This document shows, one piece after another, positions 16,807 to 64,000 of a stretch of 64,000 nt of DNA. Each line of letters opens with the position of its first letter. The stretch's first letter is position 1. Made by a program: the position numbers and the translations under genes. Below the pieces are notes generated by a model. It did not search any database and was not told the DNA's origin. It worked only from the letters and a program-made list of their open reading frames with translations. This DNA comes from Terriglobales bacterium (lineage in GTDB: Bacteria > Acidobacteriota > Terriglobia > Terriglobales > Acidobacteriaceae), in contig JAICWB010000001.1 in the NCBI GenBank assembly GCA_025935035.1, positions 11,834 to 75,833 on the forward strand. Reading direction: 5' to 3'.

Positions 16807-16860
16807 GGCGACTCAAGTTGATGACTGTACTCAGGGTCCGATAACGCGCAAAATGATTGC

Positions 16861-37619: not shown

Positions 37620-37663
37620 CCCCGGCAAACAGCCCCTTTCCCATCTGCATCCTACCAAATGCT

Positions 37664-40875: not shown

Positions 40876-40926
40876 AATGACTTCTCCTTATTCCCCGTGC
40901 ATCCGTCCTAAACACTGAAACTGTTC

Positions 40927-44986: not shown

Positions 44987-45030
44987 AGTGTGTGCGTTCC
45001 CAATTCCAAAAAAAGTCGGTTCGTTTGCCG

Positions 45031-45495: not shown

Positions 45496-45501
45496 TTCGT
45501 C

Positions 45502-50234: not shown

Positions 50235-50620
50235 GCGCCGGTCCCGCACTGCAGCAATATCCGCTGCTTGTCATTGAGGATGAAGCCTCTGTGCAAGCCT
50301 TCTTGCGGGCTGCGCTATCTCGCAACGGGTTTCAATTCGAGATCGTCGGTTCCGGCGCCGAGGGCCTCGAGCGGCTCAAGACAGGCCAGTACTGCGGGGT
50401 GCTTTCAGACATGCGCACTCCCGGCGGCGTCGATGGTGCTGATGTTCACTCCTGGCTGCGCGCAAACCAGCCCAGCCTCATTCCGCGCATGCTCTTCATC
50501 ACCGGTGACATTGTGAATGAGGAGACCCGACGTGTGCTTCAGACTACCGGTGTGCCCTGTATCGAAAAACCATTTCGCGTGAACGAATTGATCAACGCGA
50601 TCAGAAAAGTGTTGGGATAG
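50231..50620 (+). CDS. Single-domain response regulator (receiver only)
   Basis: REC with intact acidic pocket (VIEDE) and phospho-Asp (VLSDMRTPGGVDG), T (ITGD) and K (EKPF). The start overlaps the kinase stop (ATGA). Confidence 0.8.
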   Translation: MSAGPALQQYPLLVIEDEASVQAFLRAALSRNGFQFEIVGSGAEGLERLKTGQYCGVLSDMRTPGGVDGADVHSWLRANQPSLIPRMLFITGDIVNEETRRVLQTTGVPCIEKPFRVNELINAIRKVLG

Positions 50621-50623
50621 ACC

Positions 50624-52012
50624 ATGGATGACATCAAAAGCCGTTTCCTCATCGTCGACGACGACAAAAACATCCGCCGCCTCTGCATGACGGTCGGCTC
50701 ATCACTAGGCCTCATCGTTACTGAGGCTGAGAGCACCGAGTCCGCGCTTAACCAGATCGAACTTCATTCGCCCGACATCATCCTGGCCGATCTCATGATG
50801 CCGCAGATGACAGGACTTGAATTCCTCGAGCAAGTGAAAAAGCTGTTGCCGCACACCGAAGTCGCCATCATGACCGGCCACGGCAGCATAGAAACGGCCG
50901 TGCGCGCTATGCGCATGGGCGCTTACGACTTCATCACCAAGCCGTTCCGCATCGAGGAATTGAAACTGCTTCTCACGCGCATGGAAGAGAAAGTAAAACT
51001 GGTCGCCGAGAACCAATTCCTACGTGAACGAGTCACCACCGACACGAATTTAAACGGCGTCACCGGCTCCTCTCCCAAGATCCAGGATGTGTTGCGCATG
51101 GTCGCGCGCCTCAAAGACACGCGCACTCCGGTGCTGATCACCGGCGAGAGCGGCACAGGCAAAGAACTCGTAGCGCGCGCCATCCACTATCGCGGCACGC
51201 TAGCCAAGCGTCCATTCGTTGCCGTGGACTGTGGCTCGCTCGTCCCCACGTTGATCGAAAGTGAGCTGTTCGGGTATGAGAAAGGCGCGTTCACTGGCGC
51301 GCTGCGTGGAAAAGAAGGTCTCTTTCAAGCCGCCAACGGCGGCACCATTTTCTTAGACGAGATCGGCGAGCTTCCGCTGGAGATGCAGGCCAAGCTCTTG
51401 CGCGTCCTGCAGGAAAAAGAAGTGCGCCCCGTCGGCAGCAACGAGCGAGTGAAGATTGACGTCCGCGTCATAGCCGCCACTAATCGCGATCTGGAGCAAG
51501 CCTACAAAGACGGAACCTTCCGCAAGGATCTCTTCTTCCGCCTCAACGTAGTTTCCATTCACACGCCGCCACTTCGTGAACGCAAGTCGGATATTCCATC
51601 CCTCGTGCAATGGTTCCTTGAGAAGAGTGCGCCTCAACGTGTAGTCCACGTTTCCACCCAAGCCATGAAGCTGATGCTCGACTACGACTGGCCAGGCAAC
51701 GTCCGTGAACTCGAAAATTGCGTCGAACGCGCGGTGGCGCTCGGTGCAGACAGCGTTCTAGACGTCGCCGATCTCACTCCCGCCATCCGTGCGGGACAGC
51801 CCGGCGTTCCCCAGATCGCGCTCGCCACAGCGAATACAACTTCGTCTGACCTCGAAGAACTCGAGCGGGAAACCATCCAACGCGTCTTCGATCAAGTCGG
51901 TGGGGACAAGACCGCTGCCGGAAAAATTCTGGGTATCAGCCGTGCCACGCTTTACCGCAAGTTGAAGCGTTACAACATCACCCAAGCCAAAGCCATGACA
52001 GCAACTGCCTAA
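50624..52012 (+). CDS. Sigma-54-dependent response regulator (NtrC family)
   Basis: REC (IVDDD.. ILADLMMPQMTG), Walker A GESGTGKE, GAFTGA (YEKGAFTGA), and a C-terminal Fis-type HTH (AAGKILGISRATLYRKLK). It starts 3 nt after the receiver gene. Confidence 0.9.
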   Translation: MDDIKSRFLIVDDDKNIRRLCMTVGSSLGLIVTEAESTESALNQIELHSPDIILADLMMPQMTGLEFLEQVKKLLPHTEVAIMTGHGSIETAVRAMRMGAYDFITKPFRIEELKLLLTRMEEKVKLVAENQFLRERVTTDTNLNGVTGSSPKIQDVLRMVARLKDTRTPVLITGESGTGKELVARAIHYRGTLAKRPFVAVDCGSLVPTLIESELFGYEKGAFTGALRGKEGLFQAANGGTIFLDEIGELPLEMQAKLLRVLQEKEVRPVGSNERVKIDVRVIAATNRDLEQAYKDGTFRKDLFFRLNVVSIHTPPLRERKSDIPSLVQWFLEKSAPQRVVHVSTQAMKLMLDYDWPGNVRELENCVERAVALGADSVLDVADLTPAIRAGQPGVPQIALATANTTSSDLEELERETIQRVFDQVGGDKTAAGKILGISRATLYRKLKRYNITQAKAMTATA

Positions 52013-52107
52013 GCCGCAAGGCTGAGACAGCCGTCTCATAGTGAGAAACGAGACGCTGCTCAAGCAATCACGGCCAGTAAAATCAGCAACTTACCGCTCA
52101 AAATATT

Positions 52108-52123
52108 TGGCTTATCGCTTGCA
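52108..52123 (+). promoter_or_regulatory. Sigma-54 (-24/-12) promoter
   Basis: TGGCTTATCGCTTGCA has GG (52109-10) and GC (52121-22) separated by exactly 10 nt. It matches 9 of the 11 specified positions of TGGCAC-N5-TTGCW. It lies 96 nt after the activator gene stop and 46 or 67 nt before the in-frame ATGs at 52170 and 52191. Confidence 0.6.
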
Positions 52124-52190
52124 TATCAACCTTCGGGGACATCTGCGCGCGTTCATCCGCCGAGATGTCATGCTGAAAAGAAAAGAGACT

Positions 52191-53657
52191 ATGAGCACAG
52201 CGACCGTCAATCTGACTGAAGTAGCTGCAATGTGGCGCAATGCGCGCCGCCTTTACCCGATCTATTCCGCGCTGAACCAGCAATCTGGTTACGGACTGCA
52301 GCCCTGCCGCGATCTCGAAAGCCCCATCGACCGGTCCGATCCGGAAGTCGTTGAACGCGTCAAAGATTGGCTGAAACAGGTCGACACCCGCATTGAAGTG
52401 CATCAGATCCGGCAGCTTTTACAGACCACTCACATTGCCACTGAAGATGGTTTGCGCGCTTTGTTGACTCGCGAATTGCGCAAGGAGCCAAAGGACAACA
52501 CCGTCCGCGACAAAGTCGACTACATGCTCGTGCAGTATTACGCCTTTTGCTCTCCGGACGACGCGCACGCCTCCACCATCGACTTCACCCATGTCTCTCA
52601 AGTTCTGCGGCCCGTCTTGGGCGAAGTCTCACGCGTGGTGCCGGAGTTCTGCAGCGAACTCGACAACATTCTGACCCAGCTCGACCATTGCGCCTCTCTC
52701 GGTGACTTACTCAACAAGAAGATCATTGACAAAGCCCGCGCCATGAAAGACCAGGCGGGCGCCGAATATTTCAAAGCATCGGTCCTTGTCGCTTACGCGC
52801 GATTCAATTTTCTTATGCGTCGTGGATTCTTCCGCCTCATGCACGCCGACCTGCATGCCATCCGCTTCGCACTTCATGCGATGGAAGGCCGCGGACAGCA
52901 CTCATGCGATTGCACCGCCGTCGGCCTTTCAGCCGACCAGAACTTCGCTGAACTGCGCGAGATCTGTCACGACTGGAAAAAGCCATTTCGCGCCGCCTAT
53001 TCGCTCGGCAATACCTTTGAGCAGTTGGTAAAGATTCGCGCGGCGGTTGAAACAGCAATGGCGAAGCCATTGCCGTCGCCAAAACCCATTGCTCCAATTG
53101 CACCGGTGGCAGCCGCAGCCGCGCCAGCCCCTCAAGTGGCAAAACCGGCGCCAGTCACTACTCCCGCGCCCGCCAAACCCGCAGCCCAGCCTTCCGCTCC
53201 ATTTGCTGTAGCGCCGCAGACGGTCAAAACCGCCGCTCCAGTCGCAAACGTGGGAAGCAATTCCGCGGTGGACGAATGCATCTCGCAGATTCATATCGCC
53301 GTCTCCACGATTCCGGTCAAGAACGCGGCGATGTGTTCTTTCGCTCTAAAAGGAACGAAGCTCATATTGGCCTCATGGGAAGTAGTTGCGTTCCAGAAGC
53401 CGAATAGCCCCGCAGCCATTCCGGTACAGCAAGCAGTCGCTTCGCGCGTGCTTCTGATTCAAGCAGTGGAAGCGCGCAAGCGCGGCGAAGCGGTCGATGT
53501 TCGCGCAGCTATCGCGCAAGCCCATAGCCAGGCCGCGCATCTCCAGGCTGAGATCGCCACTGCTAAAGATCGCAAAGACATTGATACCGCGGTCAACTTA
53601 TCGGCAACCGCCAAACGACTGCTCGCCTTGGTCGAGCAGGCAGAAAAGGGCAAATAG
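52191..53657 (+). CDS. Hypothetical protein, no recognisable domain (N-domain, Ala/Pro-rich linker, C-domain)
   Basis: Long ORF with coding-like composition. I chose ATG 52191 (or 52170) because the sigma-54 promoter lies inside the 5' extension of the track ORF. The A/P-rich linker is encoded at about 53070-53230. The C-terminus is helical. Confidence 0.65.
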   Translation: MSTATVNLTEVAAMWRNARRLYPIYSALNQQSGYGLQPCRDLESPIDRSDPEVVERVKDWLKQVDTRIEVHQIRQLLQTTHIATEDGLRALLTRELRKEPKDNTVRDKVDYMLVQYYAFCSPDDAHASTIDFTHVSQVLRPVLGEVSRVVPEFCSELDNILTQLDHCASLGDLLNKKIIDKARAMKDQAGAEYFKASVLVAYARFNFLMRRGFFRLMHADLHAIRFALHAMEGRGQHSCDCTAVGLSADQNFAELREICHDWKKPFRAAYSLGNTFEQLVKIRAAVETAMAKPLPSPKPIAPIAPVAAAAAPAPQVAKPAPVTTPAPAKPAAQPSAPFAVAPQTVKTAAPVANVGSNSAVDECISQIHIAVSTIPVKNAAMCSFALKGTKLILASWEVVAFQKPNSPAAIPVQQAVASRVLLIQAVEARKRGEAVDVRAAIAQAHSQAAHLQAEIATAKDRKDIDTAVNLSATAKRLLALVEQAEKGK

Positions 53658-53661
53658 ACTC

Positions 53662-54435
53662 ATGTTCTCTGACGACAGGTTCATGCAAGACCGCGTAGTG
53701 CTGGTGCTAGCGCAGTCGCCTGCCTTTGCTCAAGCTTTAGTCGCTCGTTGGCAGAACATTTCATCCGCGCCGGCATTCACCGTCATCACCTCAGCGGATG
53801 CCACTTCTCACAACGGCAGCCAGTACAAAGCCTGCCATATGGTCATCGTCGAAGCAGCCGCTATCCACTCGCATCGAAATCTATTGCAACGCCTCGACGC
53901 GGTCGGCACGCCGGTCATCTGCGCATTGCCCATCGCGGCTTCTCGTAACGCTCGTTCGAACTCGCACGGCCCGGAACCGATCGTTTTCTCGCCGACGGCC
54001 GACCAACTCCGCGCAGATTTTCCGCGCATGATCACGCTCAACCTCATCGACCGCGAGTCCGGCCTCGACACGTTAGTCACTCTCGCGATCGAAGTCCTGA
54101 AACGTATCGACGCTGTGCTTCGCGCCAAGAAGGCAGAATCCGACGCCGGCTCGCAATCCGCTCAACTCGCGCTGGGTAAATACGTTGCCGAATCGATGCA
54201 CGGTTTCAACAATGCGCTTACCGCCGTGCTCGGCAATGCCGAACTATTAATGTTGGAAACCTCAAGCCTTACGCCTCAGATGCAGGAAGAGATTGAGGCC
54301 ATTCATTCCAACGCCATTCGCCTGCACGAGATGATGCAACGCTTCTCGTCATTGGAAGCCGAGATCGAGGCCGGACGCAAACATGGTAAGAGTGCCGCTG
54401 CGGGAGGCACTCAGGCTTACCTTTCAGGTACCTAA
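53662..54435 (+). CDS. HisKA (DHp)-only protein with a degenerate receiver-like N-domain; candidate histidine phosphotransferase
   Basis: 257 aa from ATG 53662, which is 4 nt after the upstream stop. C-terminal H-box LGKYVAESMHGFNNALTAVLGNAELLMLE, with the His codon at 54199-54201. A second DHp helix follows, then only about 20 more residues, so no HATPase domain. The N-terminal ~150 aa have an alternating beta/alpha pattern (VVLVLAQSP.., HMVIVEAAA.., TPVICALP). Confidence 0.65.
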   Translation: MFSDDRFMQDRVVLVLAQSPAFAQALVARWQNISSAPAFTVITSADATSHNGSQYKACHMVIVEAAAIHSHRNLLQRLDAVGTPVICALPIAASRNARSNSHGPEPIVFSPTADQLRADFPRMITLNLIDRESGLDTLVTLAIEVLKRIDAVLRAKKAESDAGSQSAQLALGKYVAESMHGFNNALTAVLGNAELLMLETSSLTPQMQEEIEAIHSNAIRLHEMMQRFSSLEAEIEAGRKHGKSAAAGGTQAYLSGT

Positions 54436-54457: not shown

Positions 54458-54486
54458 CAACTGCCAAGTGCTAGGCTTGGCAGTTG
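54458..54486 (+). other. Perfect 11-bp inverted repeat / hairpin
   Basis: CAACTGCCAAG (54458-68) and CTTGGCAGTTG (54476-86) with a 7-nt loop and no following T-run. It lies between the DHp-only gene and the PilH-like gene. Confidence 0.5.
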
Positions 54487-54506
54487 CGGAAAGTAGCAAT
54501 GGGTTC

Positions 54507-54866
54507 ATGAAAAAGATTCTTATCTGTGACGATTCGATAGCTGAGGTCAAACTCATGCAGTCCGTGCTTGAGAAAGCCGGATACTGCCCGGTCGTGACCC
54601 ACGATTCCACGCGCATCGAGCAGATGATCGACGTACAGCGGCCCAACCTCATCCTCTTGGATGTCGTCATGCCGCAACGCAATGGATTTCAAGTCTGCCG
54701 TGACCTTAAAGGACATGCAGAATACAGCCGCATCCCGGTCGTGGTGGTCAGTTCCAAAGACCAGGAGAGCGACAAGTTTTGGGCAAAGCAACAAGGCGCG
54801 GACGGCTACGTGGTAAAGCCCTTTACGCCAGAACAATTGTTGGGCGCGATAAAAGTTTTGGTTTGA
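54507..54866 (+). CDS. PilH-like single-domain CheY-family response regulator
   Basis: 120 aa from the internal ATG (MKKILICDDS). Intact REC residues (DD, LLDVVMP, VVSS, VKPF). The block SSKDQESDKFWAKQQGADGYVVKPF resembles the PilH/PixH-type signature as I recall it (TKDQETDKVWGKRQGARDYLTKP). Confidence 0.8.
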   Translation: MKKILICDDSIAEVKLMQSVLEKAGYCPVVTHDSTRIEQMIDVQRPNLILLDVVMPQRNGFQVCRDLKGHAEYSRIPVVVVSSKDQESDKFWAKQQGADGYVVKPFTPEQLLGAIKVLV

Positions 54867-54910
54867 AAAAGACGATCAGTGAGGCCACGCAATTGGGCAA
54901 GGTTAGTCGG

Positions 54911-54978
54911 GGCACGGCTTAGTAAGGGCACGGCTTCAGCCGTGCCGTAACGGGCCAATAAATGGGGGCTTTAGCCCC
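54911..54978. repeat. REP-like intergenic palindromic element (direct repeat plus two hairpins)
   Basis: GGCACGGCTT occurs twice (54911-20 and 54927-36). The second copy forms the hairpin GGCACGGC-ttca-GCCGTGCC (54927-46). A second hairpin is GGGGCT-tt-AGCCCC (54965-78). Confidence 0.4.
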
Positions 54979-54993
54979 AGCGAAGAAACGCAA

Positions 54994-55536
54994 ATGGATT
55001 ACACAGCAGAGCAGGCAAAATTAACGGCGAAACTGGCGGAAGCCGCACAATCCGCCACAGGAGCGGCCGAACTCGGCGTTCCCGCTGAAGATCGTGCCGC
55101 GGAGATCCAGTACTGCATCTTCCGCGCCGGGCGCGAACGCTTCTGCCTGCCTGTTCTTGACGTGGAAGAGGTAGTCGAATGGCCCAGCGTCACTGACCTC
55201 CCGCTCTCGCCCAGCTTCCTGATGGGGATCTTCAATCTGCGCGGCAGCATTGTCCCCGTGATCGACATCGCGTTCACTGAAGGACGCCGCGCCGATCTTC
55301 CGCCTAAGCATTGCGTTGTGGCCATCAGAAAAGGTGCGGAAGCTGGCGAGTTCCTTCGGCTCGGGATCGCCGCAGACGAGGTCATCGGTACCTATAACAC
55401 TAGTGAACCTTTGCTGGTGGATGAAGCTCCGGCAGACGTACCGCATTGTTGCGGCATGCTGCGTCACGATGACCGCTTGGCATTGGCTTTGAGTTTGAAA
55501 CGGTTGACGGAATCTTTTCCCGTGCCGGTGATTTAG
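54994..55536 (+). CDS. cheW: CheW-family coupling protein (PilI-like position)
   Basis: CheW domain ([53 protein letters not shown]) preceded by a ~35-aa Ala-rich extension. Confidence 0.85.
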
Positions 55537-55565
55537 ATTTTTCGGTTTTGTCTTGGAGGCTGTAT

Positions 55566-56996
55566 ATGAAGGGTCGGTTGAGTTCGACCATTTGGATGTT
55601 AGTCACGTTCAACGCGATAGCGCTTTTCGGCGTGATCGTGTTGGCGTATATCGCGGGCGAGAAATCGCGTTTGCCGATCGCCAATGCTCTGCAGAGTGAC
55701 GGTGCCACGTTCTTTTTGTCGGCCGTCGTCGCGGGCCTCGCCATGGCTTTCATTGTTCTCTTTGTCCTTGGCAACCGCGTGATCAAGCCAGTGAAGGAAC
55801 TCACTGACTTCTCTGAGAAGCTCGCGGCCGGTGACTACAAGGCCAAGGCAGACGTCGATTCGCAAGACGACTTCGCCCTCATCGCGGAGAACTTCAACTC
55901 CAGCAGTGAGCGCGTCTCTCGTGCCGTCACCAACCAGGAAGCGCAGGAGTCGCTGCAGAAGAGCGTCACTGAGTTCTTGACCATCGTCAGCCAGATCGCC
56001 CGCGGCGATTTGACGTTGCGCGGCAATGTGACCAATGACGCGCTCGGCAACGTAGTCGATTCCGTCAACTACATGCTTGATAACTTCACGCGCGTGCTCG
56101 AACGTGTTCGCAAGAGCGCCATTGACGTCGCCTCCAACGCCAATGAGATCTTGCTCTCGTCTGAAGACATGTCCGCCGGCGCTTCGCAACAGGACCAGGA
56201 GATCACCAATACCTCGTCCGCCGTAGAAGAGCTCACCGTCTCCATGAAGCAAGTCTCGAACAACGCGGAAGCTTCGGCGGAAGCCGCACGCCGCGCACTC
56301 GATGCCGCAGAATCCGGCAACCGCGCCGTGCGTGACACCCTCGAAGGTATGCAACGCATTCGCGCCTCCGTGCAAGCCACCGCAAAGAAGATCAAGTCAC
56401 TCGGCGATCGTTCGCTGGAGATCAGCGAGATCATCAATGTTATTAATGACATCACTGAACAGACCAACCTGCTCGCGCTCAACGCCGCCATCGAAGCAGC
56501 GCGCGCCGGTGAAGCGGGCCGCGGTTTCGCCGTCGTTGCCGACGAAGTCCGCAAGCTGGCAGAACACTCCCGCACCGCTACCAAAGACATTGCTGCACTG
56601 ATCAAAGCCATCCAGGCCGAAACGAACGAAGCCGTTGTCGTGATGGAAGAGGGGACTAAGGAAGTGGAAGTCGGCGCCAAACTGGCAGACCAGGCCGGTA
56701 AAGCGTTGGAAGCTATCTCCAGCGTCGTCCGTCAATCCGCCGAACTTGTACAGGAGATATCACTCGCCTCGAAACAACAGGTGCGCGGTACTGAAGGCGT
56801 AGCTAATGCTATGCAGATCATCTCCAACATCACGCGGCAGACTTCACAGGGGACTCGTCAGACGGCCCGCACCGTGGAACACATGGTGAAGTTATCTGAG
56901 CAGTTGAATGAAGCGCTGTCGCAATTCCGCATCGCTTCATCCGGTCCGACAGAGATCCGTTCGGCCGCCGAAGTAGCTGCCGCGGGTCGCAGATAG
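55566..56996 (+). CDS. Methyl-accepting chemotaxis protein with minimal periplasmic loop (PilJ-like position)
   Basis: Two TM helices are separated by only about 20 residues ([19 protein letters not shown]), followed by HAMP. Invariant hairpin [39 protein letters not shown]. The start ATG at 55566 lies 6 nt after GGAGG; the track start is TTG at 55548. Confidence 0.9.
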
Positions 56997-57004
56997 TTCG
57001 TAAC

Positions 57005-57027
57005 CGATGCCGATGATGTCGGCATCG
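57005..57027 (+). other. Intergenic hairpin
   Basis: CGATGCCGA (57005-13) and TCGGCATCG (57019-27) with a 5-nt loop and no T-run. It lies between the MCP and cheR genes. Confidence 0.45.
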
Positions 57028-57061
57028 CAGTCAATATTCGCCACTTGATGCTAGGTGCTAA

Positions 57062-57943
57062 GTGCTAAAGGCTACAAATTCCGACGCCACGCTGAGTGAT
57101 CACGAGCTCTCAGAGATGCGCTCGCTTTTAGAGCAGCGCTCCGGGATCCTCTTTGACACTTCGCGTGAACGCTTCTTTTCAGCACGCGTGCGGGAGCACA
57201 TGCGCGAGAAGAAGCTCGCCCACGGCGCCGAATTGCTGCGTCTCGTGCGGGGCTCGAATGTCGAATATGACCGGCTGTTAGAGCGCCTCCTGACGCAGGA
57301 GACTTCGTTCAACCGCTATCCCGCCATTTTCTCTGCGCTGGAAAAGCGCGTGCTCCCGGAAATGCACACCAAGAAATTCTGGGAAGACCCGCGCTCGCTT
57401 CGCATCTGGAGTGCCGGCTGCGCCTCTGGTGAAGAGCCTTACACCATCGCCATCAGCGTGGCGGACGCGTTCGAACAAGCCGAGACATGGAACGTACAGA
57501 TACTCGCCACCGACATAAGTCGCCAGGCGCTCGACGTAGCCGAGAAGGGCGTGTACCCCCGCCGGGAATTAGAAACATTAAAGCCCCACCAATTCAACAA
57601 CTACTTCACCCAGCAGGGCGAACACACCTTTAAGGTGAAACCGAAGATTCGCAACATGGTCACCTTCGCGCCATTGAACTTGGCGCAGGCCGTGTACATG
57701 GGCAAGTTTGACTGCATCTTCTGCATGAACGTGATGATCTATTTCACTGAGGAGCGTCGCGCAGCGTTGATCCAGCGTTTCTTCGATTACCTCGAGCCCG
57801 GCGGATACCTATTTCTCGGCCACGCGGAATCGGTCGCCAAAGCCGGGGTCGGCTTCGAACCCATCGTCGTCGGCGATTCGTTGATCTACCAGAAACCAAT
57901 GACCGCGGCCAAACGTGCCGCCGTAACACAGGAGCGTCTGTGA
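57062..57943 (+). CDS. cheR: Chemotaxis methyltransferase CheR (PilK-like position)
   Basis: N-terminal helical domain (LSDHELSEMRSLLEQRSGILFD) and SAM motif IWSAGCASGEEPYTIA. GTG start. Confidence 0.85.
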   Translation: MLKATNSDATLSDHELSEMRSLLEQRSGILFDTSRERFFSARVREHMREKKLAHGAELLRLVRGSNVEYDRLLERLLTQETSFNRYPAIFSALEKRVLPEMHTKKFWEDPRSLRIWSAGCASGEEPYTIAISVADAFEQAETWNVQILATDISRQALDVAEKGVYPRRELETLKPHQFNNYFTQQGEHTFKVKPKIRNMVTFAPLNLAQAVYMGKFDCIFCMNVMIYFTEERRAALIQRFFDYLEPGGYLFLGHAESVAKAGVGFEPIVVGDSLIYQKPMTAAKRAAVTQERL

Positions 57944-60900
57944 GCGCGCCCGGACAAGAATTCGTCGAAGTATTTCTGACCGAAGCGTCAGAGCACCTGC
58001 AGTTCCTGCGGGAATACTCAGGCATTCTCCTGGATCCGTATCCCGTCCCAGAAGATGTGGAGCGTCTCTACATAGCCGCACACACGCTCTCGGGAACCTC
58101 TGCCTCGTATCAGTTCCCACTGTTCTCTGAAGTCGCAAGTAAACTGGCACACATCTTCCAGTACGCCATGAACGCCACCGTCGGCGCCGATGCAGCCGGC
58201 CCTCTGGTCGAGTTCATCTCGGAAGCAATCGCTGTCCTCGAGTCGGACCTGATCATGGTCAGCACCAACGCCATCGAGTCAGAAGAGGACATCAACAACT
58301 TCAAGGCGAAGTATCCCTTCGCATTCCAGGCACCGGCGCCGCCGCCGTTGGTTGAAGAGCCGCATTACGTGCATGAAGCCGAGGGCGACGTGCTCGAAGC
58401 TCACGCAACTCCACAAGCTGCGCCCGTCGCTGCTCCTGCGCCTGAGATTCACATCGCGCCGCTCGACCCCGACCCGGAAATCCCCGCCGAGATCCTCGAA
58501 TTCTTCGTACCCGAGGCCGAAGAGCATCTCCAGATCATCCAAGACTGCTTGCTCTCGCTTGAAACCCACGCCAACGCGGAAGACATCAATCGTCTCTTCC
58601 GCGCCATGCATACGGTGAAGGGAAGCGCGGCGCAAGTCGGATTGCAGCGCATAGCCCGCGTCGCACATCGCGCCGAAGATCTTGTCGGACGCTTGCGCGA
58701 CGGCCTGCTTCATCCCAGCGCCGAGATCGTAGACATCTGCCTCGAATCGGTCGATTGCCTCAAGCGCTTCCTCTACAACCAGTGGAGCGACGAAATCACG
58801 CTGCAATCGTCAGTCAAATCTCTGCTCACGCGGATCGCGCGCCTCGCTCCGGAAGAAGCTGATGGCGAAGCCGCACCGGCAGAACAGGTTGAAGTTGCCT
58901 CGCAAACCATCCACGAACGGGCCGTCGCGCAAGCCGCAGCACCCATCGCCGAGGTCCTTCATGAAGAAGTCCAGGCTGCACCCGCACCAGAGCATGCCGC
59001 CGAAACTGAACACAAAGAAGAAGATGAACTAGTAGCCGGACTCACCTCCGCCAAGCGTGACATCACCGCTGTAGCGCAATCGAAATCTGTCCGCATTGGC
59101 CTAGAACGCCTAGACCGCATGATGAACGCCGTCGGCGAGTTAGTCATCAACCGCACGCGTATGCTTGGCCGTGTTGCCGAACTTGAGCGCCTGGCGGACG
59201 TGCTCAACTTCTCCAAAGGTCGCATGGCGGACAAGGTCACCGAGTTCCAGGAGAAGTACGAATTCAGCCGCCTCACCTCGCAGCCGCAGATGCCGCAGTA
59301 CCCGGCGCAATATCTCGGGGGCGGTGAATATCCATTCCGCGGCGGCTACTCCAGCTACTCCGGCGGATACGATCCCTCACTCGCCGAATTCAGCGAACTT
59401 GAGATGGACCGGTATGACGATTTCAGCATCCTCTCGCGTTCATTGACTGAGATCTCGGCCGACATCACCGAAGTCCTCACGCAGCTAGACGGCTTCGTCC
59501 GCCGCGTTGATTCTGACATCGACGAGTTCACCAAACTCGCGCACCGCCTGCAAGACGAGATCACCCAGGCACGCATGGTGCCCATCGGCAATTTGTACGC
59601 CCGCCTGTCCCGTACCGTCCGCGACGCCGCTAAAGCCGCCAACAAGCGAGTAGAACTAGCGCTATCGGGCGCTGACACCGAACTCGACAACAACATCATC
59701 CAACAGATCTCCGATCCGCTGATTCACCTCGTCCGCAACGCCGTGGCACACGGCCTCGAACGCACAGATGAGCGGTACCACGCAGGCAAAGGCGACCACG
59801 GCAATGTCGCTGTCCGCGCCTACCATCGCGGCAACCACATATATATAGAGGTAGAAGACGACGGTCGCGGTATCGACTACGCGAAAGTCCGCGCCACCGC
59901 CGTTGAAGCCGGCCTCGTAAGCTTCGAAGACGCGGCAGCACTCGGCGAGCGCGATCTGCTCGAGTTCTTGTTCCATCCCGGCTTCTCCACCGCACCTCGC
60001 AAGACCGAACTCGCCGGACGCGGTGTAGGCCTTGACGTAGTCCGCGCCAACTTAAAATCGCTCAACGGCGAGATCGACATCGAAACCTCGAAGGGCCACG
60101 GCACGCGCTTTACTCTGAAGGTGCCGCTCACCCTAATCATCTCGCAAGCGCTCTTCGTGCGGTGCGGCAAACAGACCTTCGCACTCCCGCTCGCCTTCAT
60201 CGAAGAGATTCGCCGCTTAAACGCCAACGACATCGAAGAAGTCGGCGGCAAGCTGCTTACAAAAGTCCGCGATGTAGTCACCGAAGTCGTTCGTCTCGAC
60301 GATCATCTCGGCCTCGCAAAGGTCGAGCCCGTCAACGGCTACTACCGTATGGTCATCGCCAATGTCGGTCAGCGCCAGGTCGGCATCATCGTCGAAGAAG
60401 TCCTGCGCAAAGACGAAATAGTCATCAAGAGCCTCGGCGAATACCTGCGCAACGTGAAGATGTTCCCCGGTTCCACCATCGCGCCAGACGGCAGCCTCAT
60501 CCTGCTCATCGACATCAATCGCCTCATCGCCGGCGAACAAGTCGAACGTCGTCCGCTGGCCATGGCCAACATCGCGAAGGCCGCGCGCCTCTTCGCCCCG
60601 GGCGCAGCCGCAGTCGCCGCCGGACACATCCCCGAAGCCGCCATCGACGAAGTCGGCCCGGAAAAAGTCGTGGTCCTCGCAGACGACTCCATCTCCGTCC
60701 GCAAATTTGTAGGACGCATGCTGGAAAAAGCCGGCTATCGCGTGAAACTCGCCTCAGACGGCCTGGAAGCCTTAGAGATCGCCACCGCCATGAAAGTCGA
60801 TCTAGTGGTCACAGATCTCGAGATGCCGCGCACCAACGGATACGAACTCATCGCGCACCTGAAACAAAACACGCAAACACGCAATCTGCCGGTCATGGTC

Positions 60901-61068
60901 GTCACATCACGCGCAGGCGCAAAACACAAAGACCGTGCATTGAAAGAAGGCGCATCGGCATTCATGACCAAGCCGGTGCAGGACGAACAATTTGTAGCCG
61001 CCGTGGCCGCATTGATCGGCCCGGCAATGGGAGCGTCGCTGGCACATCACGCCACGACCACACACTAG
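57940..61068 (+). CDS. cheA: Hybrid CheA-type histidine kinase with two Hpt domains and a C-terminal receiver (ChpA-like)
   Basis: Hpt1 reads AAHTLSGTSAS (His codon 58081-83). Hpt2 reads AMHTVKGSAAQ (His codon 58609-11). N box HLVRNAVAHGLE, G1 DDGRGID, G2 GRGVGLDVV, then a CheW-like domain. The C-terminal REC has intact DD and phospho-Asp (VLADDS ... LVVTDLEMPRTNG). It overlaps cheR by 4 nt. Confidence 0.9.
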   Translation: MSAPGQEFVEVFLTEASEHLQFLREYSGILLDPYPVPEDVERLYIAAHTLSGTSASYQFPLFSEVASKLAHIFQYAMNATVGADAAGPLVEFISEAIAVLESDLIMVSTNAIESEEDINNFKAKYPFAFQAPAPPPLVEEPHYVHEAEGDVLEAHATPQAAPVAAPAPEIHIAPLDPDPEIPAEILEFFVPEAEEHLQIIQDCLLSLETHANAEDINRLFRAMHTVKGSAAQVGLQRIARVAHRAEDLVGRLRDGLLHPSAEIVDICLESVDCLKRFLYNQWSDEITLQSSVKSLLTRIARLAPEEADGEAAPAEQVEVASQTIHERAVAQAAAPIAEVLHEEVQAAPAPEHAAETEHKEEDELVAGLTSAKRDITAVAQSKSVRIGLERLDRMMNAVGELVINRTRMLGRVAELERLADVLNFSKGRMADKVTEFQEKYEFSRLTSQPQMPQYPAQYLGGGEYPFRGGYSSYSGGYDPSLAEFSELEMDRYDDFSILSRSLTEISADITEVLTQLDGFVRRVDSDIDEFTKLAHRLQDEITQARMVPIGNLYARLSRTVRDAAKAANKRVELALSGADTELDNNIIQQISDPLIHLVRNAVAHGLERTDERYHAGKGDHGNVAVRAYHRGNHIYIEVEDDGRGIDYAKVRATAVEAGLVSFEDAAALGERDLLEFLFHPGFSTAPRKTELAGRGVGLDVVRANLKSLNGEIDIETSKGHGTRFTLKVPLTLIISQALFVRCGKQTFALPLAFIEEIRRLNANDIEEVGGKLLTKVRDVVTEVVRLDDHLGLAKVEPVNGYYRMVIANVGQRQVGIIVEEVLRKDEIVIKSLGEYLRNVKMFPGSTIAPDGSLILLIDINRLIAGEQVERRPLAMANIAKAARLFAPGAAAVAAGHIPEAAIDEVGPEKVVVLADDSISVRKFVGRMLEKAGYRVKLASDGLEALEIATAMKVDLVVTDLEMPRTNGYELIAHLKQNTQTRNLPVMVVTSRAGAKHKDRALKEGASAFMTKPVQDEQFVAAVAALIGPAMGASLAHHATTTH

Positions 61069-61080
61069 GACTTCGGAACG

Positions 61081-62274
61081 ATGGAAGCAGGGAAGAGAAT
61101 TCGGGTTTTAGTCGCAGACGACTCGGCGTTCATGCGCAAGGTTTTAGTAAGCATCTTAAGCGCAGATCCGCAATTTGAAGTCGCCGGCGAAGCGCGCGAT
61201 GGCCGCGATGCCGTCGCCCAGTCCGAAGCCCTGTCTCCAGACGTCATCACCATGGACATCAACATGCCTCACATGGACGGCCTCCAGGCCACCGAAGTGA
61301 TCATGTCCACCAAACCCAAACCCATCGTGATCGTCAGCTCGGAATCGCGCGATGGCGCAGACATCACTCTGAAAGCCCTCGAGCTCGGTGCGATCGACTT
61401 CGTCGCCAAGCCATCCAGCGGTGTTGATCTCGACATGAACACCATTCGCGAAGAGTTGGTTCGCAAGTTGCGCATGGCCTCGAAGGTCCGAGTTGTCCGC
61501 ACAGCGTCACGTTCGAAGCTCGCGCAAGAGATCGCCACCTCCGCCCCTCGCACCGAGCCCGCGCTCCCTTCTGGATACGCCATCAATGCGGCCAACAATG
61601 GTTCAGGCATTCAAGCGCCCGCCCTCAGAAAGATCTCCAGCGTCTTCAATGATGCCACTTCGCTGAAACGTGGCGACGGCAAATTCCCCATCGTGGTCAT
61701 CGCTGCTTCCACCGGCGGTCCAGCTACATTGATGAAGCTGATTCCAAGTTTCCCCAAAGAATTTCCCGGCGCTGTTCTACTCGTGCAGCACATGCCCGCT
61801 AGCTTCACATCGCAGTTCGCGCAACAGCTGGCAGACATCGCCGCTATAAAAGTAAAAGAGGCGTCACCCGGTGAGATCATCTCGCCCGGCAACCTTTATC
61901 TATGCCCCGGTTCGTCGCACATGAAGGTCACCGCCACCGGACGCCTCACGCTCGACGAAGGTGCGCGCATCAACGGCTATCGTCCCTGCGCCGACGTCAC
62001 CCTCACCACCGCCGCCGAATTCATAGGCAGCCTCGGCATCGGCGTGATCCTTACCGGCATGGGTAATGACGGGTGCCAGGGCGCGCAAGCCATGAAAGCT
62101 GCCGGCGCACACGTCATCGCGCAGGACGAAGCCACCTCCATCATCTTCGGCATGAACGCTGAAGCCATCAAGACCGGCGCAGTGGATCAGATCTTGCCGC
62201 TCGACTCTATCTATCAATCGATCGAGAAGCGCATGCTCTACGTCTGCGGCGCAGCGCGGGTAGGTGCATCATGA
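61081..62274 (+). CDS. cheB: Protein-glutamate methylesterase CheB (ChpB-like position)
   Basis: REC (VLVADDS.. VITMDINMPHMDG), a ~70-aa linker, then the methylesterase domain (AASTGGP, VQHMPASFT, TGMGNDGC). Confidence 0.9.
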   Translation: MEAGKRIRVLVADDSAFMRKVLVSILSADPQFEVAGEARDGRDAVAQSEALSPDVITMDINMPHMDGLQATEVIMSTKPKPIVIVSSESRDGADITLKALELGAIDFVAKPSSGVDLDMNTIREELVRKLRMASKVRVVRTASRSKLAQEIATSAPRTEPALPSGYAINAANNGSGIQAPALRKISSVFNDATSLKRGDGKFPIVVIAASTGGPATLMKLIPSFPKEFPGAVLLVQHMPASFTSQFAQQLADIAAIKVKEASPGEIISPGNLYLCPGSSHMKVTATGRLTLDEGARINGYRPCADVTLTTAAEFIGSLGIGVILTGMGNDGCQGAQAMKAAGAHVIAQDEATSIIFGMNAEAIKTGAVDQILPLDSIYQSIEKRMLYVCGAARVGAS

Positions 62275-62777
62275 ACCTCCGCCAACGCACAGTCGCAAAG
62301 AAACAGCATTCGGAAGACGTCATCCTCTTTGATGTCGGCGAGATGCGTTTCGCCATCGCCGCTCGCGATGTGGACGAGATCCGCAATATGGAGAGCATGA
62401 CCGCACGCCACTTCGGCACGGACCCGTGCATCGCGAAAGTGAAGTCAACGATCTCGCGCACCAAAGGTTCCGCCGAGCAAACGTTTTACGTGGTGAACTC
62501 CGCGCTACACTATCGCCTAGCTCAAGCCGCGCCGACTCGGTTACTCATCCTGCGCGATCATCCCGTCGCTCTCCTCGCAGACTCCATCGATCGCATGATG
62601 CAAGTCAGCACTGTTCTCGCGGTCCCGCAAGCTTTTCAAGGCGCAGAACGCAAATGGTATCGCGGCCTCGCGGTCATGAACGGCAAAGTAATACCCATGG
62701 TCGATCCCGCGTCGTTCCTCGGTCGCGAAGAACTCGACCTTCTTGCCGGCACAAGAGTTCAGGCGGTGACGGCATGA
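62271..62777 (+). CDS. Divergent CheW-like protein (ChpC-like position)
   Basis: CheW-like topology (VILFDVGEMRFAIAARDVDEIRNM ... LLILRDHPVALLADSIDRMMQV ... GLAVMNGKVIPMVDPASF). It overlaps cheB by 4 nt. Confidence 0.7.
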   Translation: MNLRQRTVAKKQHSEDVILFDVGEMRFAIAARDVDEIRNMESMTARHFGTDPCIAKVKSTISRTKGSAEQTFYVVNSALHYRLAQAAPTRLLILRDHPVALLADSIDRMMQVSTVLAVPQAFQGAERKWYRGLAVMNGKVIPMVDPASFLGREELDLLAGTRVQAVTA

Positions 62778-63193
62778 GTACTGACAGCCGCTTTGTCCTG
62801 TTCCCGCTAGGCAACAAACGCTTCGCTTTGCCTGCCGCTCAAGTCACCGAACTCGCGCAGCCAGACGTCTTGCAAAAATTCCCGCACACCACCAAGCTGT
62901 TAGCCGGTGTGCTCCTTCGCCGCGGGCGCATCATTCCCGTCCTCGACGTAGCTGAAGTCCTAATTGGCCCGGACGCCCCCGCTCGCAAGTTCTATCTCAT
63001 CGCTACCAGAAAGTTCGATCACATGGAAGAATGGACCGCCGTGCCCGTGACCGGCGAATGCGAATTGAAAAAGTGGGACATGATTCCGCCCATGCCCTCA
63101 CTGCCCAAACATGTCATTGGCATCCTTTCGCTGCCAGAAGAGACCATTGAAGTGATTGATCTCAATCAACTAGCAATGACGGCGGTCGCTTAA
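62774..63193 (+). CDS. Second divergent CheW-like protein
   Basis: 139 aa from ATG 62774, with an ATGA overlap on the previous stop. Sequence: FVLFPLGNKRFALPAAQVTELAQ ... LAGVLLRRGRIIPVLDVAEVL ... VIGILSLPEETIEVIDLNQL. Confidence 0.7.
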   Translation: MSTDSRFVLFPLGNKRFALPAAQVTELAQPDVLQKFPHTTKLLAGVLLRRGRIIPVLDVAEVLIGPDAPARKFYLIATRKFDHMEEWTAVPVTGECELKKWDMIPPMPSLPKHVIGILSLPEETIEVIDLNQLAMTAVA

Positions 63194-63984
63194 TGTCGAA
63201 TATCTCCGCCAATCCGCGCCTGTTGTTGATTGATAGCAACGTCTTCTTCGCCAAGCGCCTCACTGACGCGCTCACAGCCATCGGCTTCGACGTCTCCCAC
63301 AACACGCAATCCGCCTTCGCACTCACATCGCTCGAATGGGACACGCCCGTAGCCATCATCTGCTCCACGCAACTTCGCGAGATGGGAGCGTTTGAGCTTC
63401 CCAAGATTCTTAACGCTGATGCCAAGACCGCGCATATCCCCGTCATAGCCATGGGCGACGGCGGCGACCAGGCGCTGATGGAAGCTTTCCGCGCCGGTTG
63501 CGACGACTATATCGATCGCCGTCTCGGCCCCGAACACATCGCCACCCATGTGCGCACTTTTCTAAAGAGTCACACCGAAGGCTTCCAGCCCACGCAGATG
63601 CTCACCAACTCTGAGACTGCGTTGAGCGGCAATCTCTCACACCTCGATCTGCCCGGCGTCGTGCAGATGCTATGTCACTCCCGCCAGTCCGGCGCGCTCC
63701 ACATCAACGCGCGCGAGATCGACGGCGTGATCTTCTTTGAAGCCGGTGACATCACCCATGCCGAAGCCGGCGAGCAGATCGGTGACGACGCGTTCACCAC
63801 CATCGTGAAGCGCTGCAATGGCATAGGAAATGGCATCTACAAATTCATTCCCGGGGCAGAAACCCCCACGCGCACTGTCTTGCGATCAGCAACCGATCTC
63901 ATGCTCGATGCGTTGCGTCAGCTCGATGAAGAGAATGACGGCGGTGGGGAAGAAGAAGGATTCGCAACAGGAGGGGCATCGTGA
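63193..63984 (+). CDS. Degenerate receiver + DUF4388/PATAN-like domain protein
   Basis: The N-terminal REC fold lacks the phospho-acceptor Asp: VAIICSTQLREMG where DxxMP is expected (C57-S58, codons 63361-66). The conserved T is G and the conserved K is R. The C-terminal block LSGNLSHLDLPGVVQMLCHSRQSGALHINAREIDGVIFFEAGDITHAEAGEQIGDDAF fits the DUF4388 pattern as I recall it. The start overlaps the previous stop (TAATG). Confidence 0.7.
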   Translation: MSNISANPRLLLIDSNVFFAKRLTDALTAIGFDVSHNTQSAFALTSLEWDTPVAIICSTQLREMGAFELPKILNADAKTAHIPVIAMGDGGDQALMEAFRAGCDDYIDRRLGPEHIATHVRTFLKSHTEGFQPTQMLTNSETALSGNLSHLDLPGVVQMLCHSRQSGALHINAREIDGVIFFEAGDITHAEAGEQIGDDAFTTIVKRCNGIGNGIYKFIPGAETPTRTVLRSATDLMLDALRQLDEENDGGGEEEGFATGGAS

Positions 63985-64000
63985 GCTCCACGCCTACGAT
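63981..64000 (+). CDS. Possible start of a further co-oriented gene (runs off the window)
   Basis: GTG at 63981 overlaps the TGA stop (GTGA) and is preceded by AGGAGG (63969-74) at 6-nt spacing. Only 6 codons are visible. Confidence 0.25.

What the first reader, a model, noticed from the sequence alone, without database searches (positions are those of the whole stretch)
63193..63984. Reversed-order pseudo-receiver + PATAN/DUF4388-like protein terminating the che cluster
In cyanobacterial and other pilus-type chemosensory systems, the PatA-type regulators I know have the order PATAN then REC, with a functional receiver. Here the order is REC then PATAN-like, and the receiver is degenerate. 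The phospho-acceptor position reads Cys-Ser (AIICSTQ, codons 63361-63366), the conserved Thr is Gly (IAMGDG), and the Lys is Arg (YIDRR).

The cluster also lacks a PilG-type gene at its 5' end. This protein may therefore be a phosphorylation-independent substitute output or adaptor. Its start is translationally coupled to the second extra CheW (TAATG).
Basis: partly seen in the sequence, partly recalled or inferred. Interest (0 to 1): 0.65.

Follow-up and report, generated by a model that had tools for sequence, protein, structure and literature searches.

The report
Dead-receiver PATAN protein in che operon
This gene encodes a soil-acidobacterial signalling protein whose phosphate-accepting switch domain has lost its phosphorylation site. 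The protein is strongly conserved and always sits next to, or is fused to, an intact switch protein, so it is an uncharacterised variant of a known pilus-type chemosensory output rather than a new kind of system.

Summary
The ORF 63193-63984 (+, 263 aa) is real. It encodes a receiver-fold domain (aa 9-129), a disordered linker, and a full-length PATAN/DUF4388 domain (aa 145-247). CheY D13, D57, T87 and K109 correspond to Ser15, Ser58 (preceded by an invariant Cys57), Gly88 and Arg109. The TAATG overlap with the upstream CheW is present.

Three interpretive points fail:
- REC-then-PATAN is a widespread architecture in several phyla, with both intact and degenerate receivers.
- The cluster does have a canonical single-domain REC at its 5' end (54507-54866).
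- The gene does not terminate the cluster. A further gene starts at GTG 63981, overlapping the target's stop codon. It encodes a canonical REC, an Ala/Pro-rich linker and a conserved C-terminal helix.

The gene order REC-CheW-MCP-CheR-CheA(REC)-CheB-CheW-CheW-pseudoREC/PATAN-REC/helix is conserved across Terriglobia; at least 431 species genomes encode a relative of the protein. The pseudo-receiver is under strong purifying selection. A canonical receiver is always adjacent to it or fused to it.

Best reading: a non-phosphorylatable PATAN output or adaptor subunit, controlled in trans by the neighbouring receiver or by docking to the kinase. This is a new variant of a known kind, of moderate interest.

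The parts
63193..63984 (+). Complete gene for the 263-aa pseudo-receiver/PATAN protein. The ATG overlaps the TAA of the upstream CheW, and the TGA overlaps the GTG of the next gene.
63217..63579 (+). Pseudo-receiver domain, aa 9-129. It has a receiver fold, but only Asp14 of the five catalytic residues is kept. It is as conserved as the PATAN half.
63361..63366 (+). Codons Cys57-Ser58 at the end of beta3. Ser58 occupies the phospho-acceptor column: Ser in 47 and Ala in 38 of 85 sequences. Cys57 and Thr59 are invariant.
63454..63456 (+). Gly88 at the conserved Thr/Ser (CheY T87) position; invariant in 85 of 85 sequences.
63517..63519 (+). Arg109 at the conserved Lys (CheY K109) position: Arg in 56 and Lys in 29 of 85 sequences.
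63580..63624 (+). Inter-domain linker, aa 130-144. The model is low-confidence here, but the sequence motif GFQPTQML is conserved.
63625..63933 (+). PATAN / DUF4388 (PF14332, 'PatA_N') domain, aa 145-247. This is the compact form without a helical insertion.
63940..63981 (+). Short acidic, Gly-rich, poorly conserved C-terminal tail, aa 250-263. Some relatives carry a 100-190 aa acidic tail here.
63981..64000 (+). First codons (VSSTPT) of the next gene, cut by the window end. The start is GTG, with GGAGG at 63970-63974. Orthologues encode about 230-310 aa: a canonical REC, an Ala/Pro-rich linker and a conserved C-terminal helix.
62774..63193 (+). Third CheW of the cluster (the 'second extra CheW'), about 139 aa, translationally coupled on both sides.
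62271..62777 (+). Second CheW of the cluster, 168 aa and divergent.
61081..62274 (+). CheB: canonical REC plus methylesterase.
57940..61068 (+). CheA-type hybrid kinase, 1042 aa. It has two Hpt domains (HTLSGT at aa 48, HTVKGS at aa 224), a dimerisation domain, HATPase_c, a CheW-like domain and a canonical C-terminal REC.
57062..57943 (+). CheR methyltransferase.
55548..56996 (+). MCP with two N-terminal hydrophobic segments, a HAMP domain and a signalling domain.
54994..55536 (+). First CheW of the cluster.
54507..54866 (+). Canonical single-domain receiver at the 5' end of the cluster (the ORF can be read from GTG 54468; ATG 54507 gives 119 aa, as in orthologues). It is a CheY/PilG/PilH-type stand-alone REC.
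53662..54435 (+). Conserved upstream gene: a DHp (HisKA)-only protein without an ATPase domain. It is kept next to the target module even in reduced variants of the cluster.

Best explanation
The gene encodes a conserved Terriglobia (Acidobacteriota) two-domain protein: a receiver-fold domain that can no longer accept phosphate at the canonical Asp, joined by a flexible linker to a compact PATAN domain.

It is the ninth gene of a translationally coupled chemosensory operon. The first seven genes (REC, CheW, MCP, CheR, CheA-REC, CheB, CheW) are colinear with pilH-pilI-pilJ-pilK-chpA-chpB-chpC of Pseudomonas (gene order recalled from my own knowledge). It is followed by a gene for a fully canonical receiver with an Ala/Pro-rich linker and a conserved C-terminal helix.

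Most likely mechanism (inferred):
- The PATAN domain is the output surface. By analogy with cyanobacterial PATAN regulators, it binds a motility or polarity machine such as the type IV pilus motor.
- The pseudo-receiver is a protein-protein interaction module that makes PATAN activity depend on the pathway without being phosphorylated itself.
- It probably pairs with the adjacent phosphorylatable receiver, as the REC and pseudo-REC adaptor of PleD do, but on two chains.
- Alternatively, or in addition, it docks on the kinase.

Shown: gene, domains, residue losses, purifying selection, strict synteny, and the constant adjacency or fusion of a canonical receiver.
Inferred: the binding partners and the target of the PATAN domain.
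For: Domains and residue losses.

Selection on the pseudo-receiver:
- Median identity to the query is 67% for both halves across 84 orthologues.
- Cys57, Thr59, Gly88 and Asp14 are invariant, and the alpha1 helix NVFFAxRL is invariant in the 60-sequence alignment A2.
- dN/dS is 0.04-0.15 for the receiver half, generally no higher than for the PATAN half.

Synteny:
- The ten-gene order is conserved in essentially all Terriglobia loci with enough DNA.
- Of 80 loci with at least 400 nt downstream, 78 have the REC-linker-helix gene directly after the target, with a median gap of -2 nt. The two exceptions carry a canonical REC fused N-terminally to the pseudoREC-PATAN module.
- The partner has DD/D/S/K in 75 of 75 orthologues.

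Natural fusions:
- CheA core fused to pseudoREC-PATAN, followed by the REC-helix gene, on a 26-kb contig.
- REC fused to pseudoREC-PATAN, in three samples.

Published PATAN function:
- The PATAN domain of PixE alone binds the PilB1 and PilC N-terminal domains and is sufficient to switch phototaxis direction.
- PixE is non-phosphorylatable.
- PixG needs phosphorylation to localise (bioRxiv 10.1101/2021.06.11.447907; PMC11181946).

The best PDB sequence hits of the query are the two receiver domains of PleD.
Against: - No interaction was tested, and no multimer prediction was possible.
- No type IV pilus, MglA or MglB genes lie in the 64-kb window. The link to pili therefore rests on analogy and on gene order.
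- The PATAN domain here lacks the helical insertion of PixE/PatA-type domains. PilB binding was shown only for the construct with the insertion.
- The REC fused in the three-sample variant is of CheB type, not the REC-helix type. It supports 'a receiver works with the module', not the specific partner.
- The similarity to PleD is weak: 20-22 bits per domain.
- The fusion variants could be decaying clusters.
Confidence: 0.5

Rival explanations
1. One reading: the protein is a phosphorylation-independent substitute for a missing PilG-type response regulator and is the terminal output of the cluster.
For: - The receiver lacks the acceptor Asp.
- PATAN domains are outputs in cyanobacterial pilus-type systems.
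Against: - A canonical stand-alone REC is encoded at the 5' end (54507-54866).
- A second canonical REC gene overlaps the target's stop codon and is present in 78 of 80 informative loci.
- Nothing is missing that would need substituting, and the target is not the last gene.
Confidence: 0.08
2. The pseudo-receiver is a docking module for a four-helix bundle. It binds an Hpt domain of the CheA-type kinase, or the conserved DHp-only protein encoded upstream, through the alpha1 / beta5-alpha5 face that receivers normally use for kinases. This would tether PATAN to the signalling complex. Output would then depend on kinase conformation or occupancy rather than on the neighbouring receiver.
For: - The alpha1 helix (N16 V17 F18 F19 A20 R22 L23) is invariant in 60 orthologues. 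From established two-component biology, alpha1 carries the main kinase-receiver specificity residues.
- Natural fusions join the CheA core, or CheA's N-terminal Hpt-like domain, to the module.
- The DHp-only gene is conserved upstream in at least 50 loci. It is one of the few genes kept beside the module in both reduced variants, L085 and L086/L087.
- Its H-box His is replaced by Pro in 15 of 49 orthologues, so it too often cannot transfer phosphate.
Against: - Part of the alpha1 conservation may simply reflect core packing.
- Co-retention in two reduced variants is thin evidence.
- No interaction data exist.
- This reading does not explain why a canonical receiver is always adjacent or fused.
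Confidence: 0.25
3. The receiver pocket is still a switch but uses different chemistry. Examples are oxidation or modification of the invariant Cys57, phosphorylation of Thr59 or Ser58 by a Ser/Thr kinase, or ligand or metal binding by the remodelled pocket.
For: - Cys57, Thr59, Asp14 and Gly88 are invariant around a variable Ser/Ala acceptor position.
- Tyr/Phe106 is retained.
Against: - The acceptor-column residue itself varies between Ser and Ala, so it cannot be the modified site.
- No kinase or redox partner is encoded in the conserved cluster.
- Invariance may be structural.
- This reading rests on inference alone.
Confidence: 0.07
4. The receiver half is an evolutionary remnant with no function, and only the PATAN domain matters.
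For: In cyanobacteria, PATAN alone can complement or act without its receiver.
Against: - The receiver half is as conserved as the PATAN half: 67% median identity for each.
- It has equal or lower dN/dS (0.04-0.15) across Terriglobia.
- It is retained in all fusion variants.
Confidence: 0.05

Closest known systems
Cyanobacterial PatA-type regulators (PixG, PilG/TaxP3, PixE, LsiR, PatA)
   Same: - They carry a PATAN (PF14332) domain plus a receiver domain.
- They are encoded in pilus-type chemotaxis-like operons together with a second, stand-alone CheY-like receiver.
- PixE is likewise non-phosphorylatable.
- PATAN is the output domain and binds PilB1 and PilC.
   Different: - Domain order is REC then PATAN here, the reverse of the PatA type.
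- The PATAN domain here is the compact form without the helical insertion.
- The gene sits near the 3' end of the operon, after two extra CheW genes.
- It is coupled to a REC-linker-helix gene.
- The phylum is Acidobacteriota.
- No experiment exists for this family.
PleD of Caulobacter (REC, pseudo-REC adaptor, GGDEF)
   Same: - A phosphorylatable receiver works with a non-phosphorylatable receiver-fold adaptor that carries the output.
- PleD's two receiver domains are the best PDB sequence matches of the query.
- A single-chain REC-pseudoREC-PATAN variant exists (P0137).
   Different: - In the window the two receiver folds are on separate, translationally coupled proteins.
- The output is PATAN, not GGDEF.
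- Similarity is weak and homology beyond the receiver fold is not implied.
FrzS / AglZ pseudo-receiver proteins of Myxococcus xanthus
   Same: - They have a receiver fold lacking the residues critical for phosphorylation and used as a protein-interaction module in pilus-dependent motility. The FrzS pseudo-receiver binds SgmX (PMC11580455).
- The FrzS receiver is a structural and sequence hit.
   Different: - FrzS carries a long coiled coil, not PATAN.
- It is not an orthologue.
- In the window, the helix-bearing protein is the neighbouring one, and its receiver is canonical.
Pil-Chp system of Pseudomonas aeruginosa (PilG/PilH, PilI, PilJ, PilK, ChpA, ChpB, ChpC)
   Same: - Gene order REC-CheW-MCP-CheR-CheA(REC)-CheB-CheW (Pseudomonas order recalled from my own knowledge).
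- A hybrid CheA with more than one Hpt domain.
- Two canonical receivers that could act antagonistically.
   Different: - Only one REC at the 5' end.
- An additional CheW.
- The pseudoREC-PATAN and REC-helix genes at the 3' end.
- The MCP lacks a periplasmic domain.
- The class assignment was not tested phylogenetically.
RomR of Myxococcus (for the downstream partner)
   Same: REC, an unstructured Pro/Ala-rich linker and a short conserved alpha-helical C-terminus. RomR homologues have been reported in Acidobacteria (PMC3441718).
   Different: [quoted passage not shown] It was not compared directly with a RomR sequence.

Membership tests
PATAN / DUF4388 domain (Pfam PF14332, 'PatA_N') | Significant full-length match to the family profile | tested here: met
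   65.2 bits against the gathering score of 25; E 7e-18; aa 145-247 cover profile positions 1-121 of 122.
PATAN / DUF4388 domain (Pfam PF14332, 'PatA_N') | Binds the type IV pilus motor (PilB N-terminal domain, PilC N-terminal domain), as shown for PixE PATAN | not testable with these tools
   Known only from the literature. No pilB or pilC in the window.
PatA-type response regulator (PATAN-REC) | N-terminal PATAN followed by a C-terminal receiver | tested here: not met
   The receiver is at aa 11-120 and PATAN at aa 145-247.
PatA-type response regulator (PATAN-REC) | PATAN domain with the alpha-helical insertion described for PatA and Synechocystis regulators | tested here: not met
   103 residues span the whole 122-position profile. 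The model reads beta-alpha-beta3-alpha-beta-alpha with no helical hairpin insert.
PatA-type response regulator (PATAN-REC) | Encoded in a chemotaxis-like operon together with a stand-alone CheY-like receiver | tested here: met
   A stand-alone REC is at 54507-54866 and a full set of che genes lies between it and the target.
Functional response-regulator receiver (Pfam PF00072) | Score at or above the Pfam gathering threshold | tested here: not met
   27.0 bits against 30.2.
Functional response-regulator receiver (Pfam PF00072) | (beta-alpha)5 receiver fold | tested here: met
   In the AF2 model, 10-residue blocks covering most of aa 9-129 have mean pLDDT about 56-88. Foldseek TM 0.80-0.89 to PhoB, MtrA and DivK receivers.
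Functional response-regulator receiver (Pfam PF00072) | Catalytic quintet D12, D13, D57, T/S87, K109 (CheY numbering) | tested here: not met
   The quintet reads D, S, S, G, R. The acceptor column is Ser or Ala in 85 of 85 sequences and never Asp.
REC-then-PATAN proteins (unnamed, widespread architecture) | Colinear receiver then PATAN, separated by a short linker | tested here: met
   57 cluster representatives align over both domains. Pfam coordinates were confirmed in 10. The 45 distant ones are a mix: 18 with the acceptor Asp and 27 without.
Pil-Chp / pilus-type (Tfp-class) chemosensory cluster | Gene order REC-CheW-MCP-CheR-CheA(REC)-CheB-CheW, with a multi-Hpt hybrid CheA | tested here: met
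   Pfam content of the ORFs from 54468 to 62777; the CheA has 2 Hpt domains and a C-terminal REC.
Pil-Chp / pilus-type (Tfp-class) chemosensory cluster | Class assignment by CheA/CheW phylogeny, and a functional or genomic link to type IV pili | not tested
   No class HMMs were on hand. There are no pilus genes in the 64 kb.
FrzS-type pseudo-response regulator | Pseudo-receiver followed by a long coiled coil | tested here: not met
   The C-terminal half is PATAN, not a coiled coil.
RomR (downstream partner gene only) | REC, unstructured linker and a RomR-C helix with invariant Trp and Pro | tested here: inconclusive
   REC and an Ala/Pro linker are present. The conserved C-terminal helix has no Trp. 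It was not compared with a RomR sequence; the definition comes from PMC3441718.

The most novel reading that the evidence does not exclude
The pseudoREC-PATAN protein and the REC-linker-helix protein whose start codon overlaps its stop form a 'split' response regulator. Phosphorylation of the canonical receiver on one chain would control the PATAN output on the other chain through receiver:pseudo-receiver heterodimerisation. The often His-less DHp-only protein upstream could act as a further phosphorylation-dead docking partner. This would be a Terriglobia-wide output module linking a Chp-like array to pili or to cell polarity. It would also be the first mechanistic example of a PleD-type REC/adaptor pair acting in trans.
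Probability: 0.25. Interest if true: 0.55.

Novelty: new variant of a known kind. Interest (0 to 1): 0.4.

Why it matters
PATAN domains are the only known direct link between chemotaxis-like arrays and the type IV pilus motor in cyanobacteria. Outside cyanobacteria they are abundant and almost unstudied.

This family shows that a very common soil lineage (Terriglobia, at least 431 species genomes) keeps a PATAN protein whose receiver is dead yet strongly constrained, always next to a live receiver. If the two act as one unit, it would show how pseudo-receivers are wired into phosphorelays, and it would give a handle on surface motility or polarity control in Acidobacteria, where almost nothing is known.

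It does not open a new class of system. Each ingredient is individually known: PATAN output, pseudo-receivers, and Chp-like operons with two receivers.

Tried and rejected
- An exact-sequence look-up of the window protein in public assemblies found nothing. Context was taken from orthologues P0014 and P0008 instead.
- A PDB sequence search found only receiver domains and no solved PATAN relative.
- A PATAN-only AlphaFold model (pLDDT 80) had no significant Foldseek neighbour in the PDB: best E 0.04, TM below 0.32, all GyrB or protease noise. Fold comparison therefore says nothing about PATAN function.
- The full-length model has low inter-domain confidence (pTM 0.44), so no domain-packing claim is made.
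- Literature searches for DUF4388, PATAN, pseudo-receiver and Acidobacteria found nothing on this architecture. The original PATAN paper (PMID 16543275) is not held.
- I considered the idea that the downstream gene is RomR. I did not adopt it because its C-terminal helix lacks the Trp described for RomR-C.
- I considered the idea that the DHp-only protein is a Spo0B/ChpT-like phosphotransferase. This is weakened because its His is Pro in 15 of 49 orthologues, and it has no PDB relative.
- I looked for pilus, MglA or MglB genes in the window and found none.
- dS is saturated in most pairwise comparisons. The dN/dS values are rough upper-level indicators only.
Full report
**What is there**

The ORF 63193-63984 on the + strand encodes 263 aa.
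- Pfam finds a full-length PATAN/DUF4388 domain at aa 145-247: 65.2 bits against a cut-off of 25, covering profile positions 1-121 of 122.
- It also finds a sub-threshold Response_reg match at aa 11-120: 27.0 bits against 30.2.
- An AlphaFold model built on 60 orthologues gives a (beta-alpha)5 domain (aa 9-129), a disordered linker (aa 130-145), a compact alpha/beta domain (aa 146-249) and a disordered acidic tail.
- Foldseek matches the first domain to PhoB, MtrA, DivK, PleD and FrzS receivers, with TM 0.80-0.89.
- A separate model of the PATAN half (pLDDT 80) has no significant neighbour among solved structures.

**Residues**

Three independent alignments with CheY or canonical receivers agree: HMMER against PleD, and MAFFT with CheY and orthologues or distant relatives.

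| CheY position | Residue in target |
|---|---|
| D12 | Asp14 (kept) |
| D13 | Ser15 |
| D57 | Ser58 |
| T87 | Gly88 |
| K109 | Arg109 |

- Cys57 is the residue before the acceptor column. A one-residue shift would put it in that column. Neither register supplies an Asp.
- Across 85 sequences (the query plus 84 orthologues from other contigs), the acceptor column is Ser (47) or Ala (38).
- Cys57, Thr59, Gly88 and Asp14 are invariant.
- Position 109 is Arg (56) or Lys (29).
- The three other receivers of the cluster (5' REC, CheA-REC, CheB-REC) all read DDD[ST][YF]K.

**The gene is real and under selection**

- A database search returns 2912 relatives. The top 120 are 70-96% identical and come from Terriglobales and other Acidobacteriota metagenomes.
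- At least 431 GTDB species genomes encode a relative. The best 80 are all labelled Terriglobia/Acidobacteriota except two MAGs labelled Rhizomicrobium (L041) and Ca. Binatus (L069).
- The receiver half is as conserved as the PATAN half, with a median of 67% identity each.
- Its dN/dS is 0.04-0.15. dS is saturated, so these values are rough.
- The alpha1 helix NVFFAxRL is invariant in 60 orthologues.
- The domain is not a decaying remnant.

**Context**

On the + strand the window carries, in order:

| Coordinates | Gene |
|---|---|
| 54507-54866 | canonical stand-alone REC |
| 54994 | CheW |
| 55548 | MCP |
| 57062 | CheR |
| 57940 | hybrid CheA with two Hpt domains and a C-terminal REC |
| 61081 | CheB |
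| 62271 | CheW |
| 62774 | CheW |
| 63193 | the target |

- Most junctions overlap.
- The target's TGA overlaps a GTG at 63981, which is preceded by GGAGG.
- The last six codons of the window (VSSTPT) match the start of a 268-aa gene that follows the orthologue elsewhere.
- That gene encodes a canonical receiver (DD/D/S/K in 75 of 75), a roughly 93-aa linker that is 49% Ala+Pro, and a strongly conserved C-terminal helix.
- tblastn over 84 loci shows the ten-gene order is conserved throughout.
- Of 80 loci with at least 400 nt downstream, 78 have this gene directly after the target, with a median gap of -2 nt.
- The target therefore does not terminate the cluster, and the cluster does not lack a stand-alone receiver at its 5' end.

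**Is the domain order unusual?**

No.
- A search of 1.84 billion cluster representatives gives 7261 hits. 487 of them are below 1e-10, and many align colinearly across both domains at 22-35% identity.
- Of 45 such distant representatives, 18 have the acceptor Asp, 10 have the full canonical set, and 27 lack the Asp. 16 carry more than 100 further residues after PATAN.
- Pfam confirms REC(about 7-119) followed by DUF4388(about 140-240) in ten of them. Canonical receivers score 86-113 bits. Some carry C-terminal TPR or ODP domains, and one has a REC-REC-PATAN form.
- Named members come from NC10/Methylomirabilales and Myxococcaceae.
- The literature already notes that most DUF4388 proteins have no other domain or a single REC. 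It also notes that PatA-type (PATAN-REC) regulators are typical of cyanobacteria only.

**Variants that bear on mechanism**

- One 26-kb contig carries DHp-only / CheR / [CheA Hpt-Hpt-dimer-ATPase fused to pseudoREC-PATAN] / REC-helix (P0131).
- Three samples carry DHp-only / CheR / [CheB-type canonical REC fused to pseudoREC-PATAN], with no REC-helix gene (P0137).
- Another representative fuses a CheA N-terminal Hpt-like domain to the module (P0129).
- Three loci lack the two extra CheW genes but keep everything else.
- In every variant seen, a canonical receiver is adjacent to or fused with the pseudoREC-PATAN module, and the module tracks the kinase.

**Mechanism**

Established work provides three relevant points.
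- PixE is non-phosphorylatable.
- PixG needs phosphorylation to localise.

By analogy, I take PATAN to be the output surface. The pseudo-receiver would be an interaction module that couples it to the pathway.

Two couplings fit the data:
- The first is pairing with the neighbouring phosphorylatable receiver. This resembles the REC/adaptor pair of PleD, whose receiver domains are the best PDB sequence hits, but on two chains.
- The second is docking on a four-helix bundle of the kinase or of the conserved DHp-only protein. That protein's His is Pro in 15 of 49 orthologues.

I favour the first because of the invariable adjacency or fusion of a canonical receiver. Neither coupling was tested. The pilus target is inferred only. 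The window has no pilus, MglA or MglB genes, and the PATAN domain here lacks the helical insertion present in the PixE construct that was assayed.

**Comparison and novelty**

- The protein is a member of the PATAN domain family.
- It is not a PatA-type regulator: the order and the insertion tests were not met.
- It is not a functional receiver: three of the tested features were not met.
- It belongs to a widespread but experimentally uncharacterised REC-then-PATAN architecture.
- Within that architecture it defines a Terriglobia clade with a fixed pseudo-receiver, embedded in a Chp-like operon.
- I found no paper on it.
- I rate it a new variant of a known kind. It is of moderate interest as an entry point to pseudo-receiver wiring and to motility control in Acidobacteria.

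Noticed in passing
window 63970-64000: A further gene starts at GTG 63981, overlapping the target's TGA, with a GGAGG Shine-Dalgarno at 63970-63974. It is cut by the window end. Orthologues encode a canonical REC, a roughly 93-aa Ala/Pro-rich linker and a conserved C-terminal helix (KLRxExMRLEGLVKKLQSELxAEREY...). The architecture is RomR-like, but the helix has no Trp.
   Followed up: yes
window 53662-54435 (+): A conserved 257-aa protein lies directly upstream of the cluster. It has a HisKA/DHp domain only and no ATPase domain. It is found upstream in at least 50 Terriglobia loci and is kept in both reduced cluster variants. Its H-box His is Pro in 15 of 49 orthologues, so it is often a phosphorylation-dead DHp. 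It has no PDB relative.
   Followed up: partly
window 52041-53657 (+): A 538-aa protein with no Pfam match and an Ala/Pro-rich central region precedes the DHp-only gene. tblastn finds it in 45 of the related loci.
   Followed up: partly
L085:1246-3789; L086:3718-5031; L087:1812-3125: Reduced natural variants of the cluster exist. One is a CheA core (no P5, no REC) fused to pseudoREC-PATAN and followed by the REC-helix gene. The other is a CheB-type REC fused to pseudoREC-PATAN, seen in three samples. Both keep the DHp-only gene and CheR but have no MCP or CheW between them.
   Followed up: partly
L051, L057, L066: These loci lack both extra CheW genes: CheB is followed directly by the pseudoREC-PATAN gene. 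The extra CheWs are therefore not obligatory partners of the target.
   Followed up: no
window 57940-61068 (+): The hybrid CheA has two Hpt domains. The first has an atypical HTLSGT motif (Ser where the usual motif has Lys). The second has the usual HTVKGS.
   Followed up: no
window 39938-47463 (-): A second, separate chemotaxis cluster lies on the minus strand. It comprises an MCP, CheW, CheR, CheA (697 aa, no REC), CheB, CheY and a 166-aa CheC/CheX-like protein. It is presumably the flagellar-type system. These assignments were read from the translated ORFs by eye; no family search was run on this cluster.
   Followed up: no
window 47913-52012 (+): A PAS-PAS histidine kinase, a stand-alone REC and a sigma-54 NtrC-type activator lie immediately upstream of the conserved unit. 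They may regulate its transcription.
   Followed up: no
window 15781-18683 and 37610-38515: A LigD primase-polymerase gene and a Ku gene (NHEJ) lie about 20 kb apart. Two tandem tyrosine recombinase genes are at 16861-18683.
   Followed up: no
P0123, P0126, P0127, P0128 (relatives, 49-59% identical): Some clade members extend the short acidic tail to 100-190 aa of acidic, disordered sequence. Three of these tails end in a similar ...[ST]HE C-terminus.
   Followed up: no
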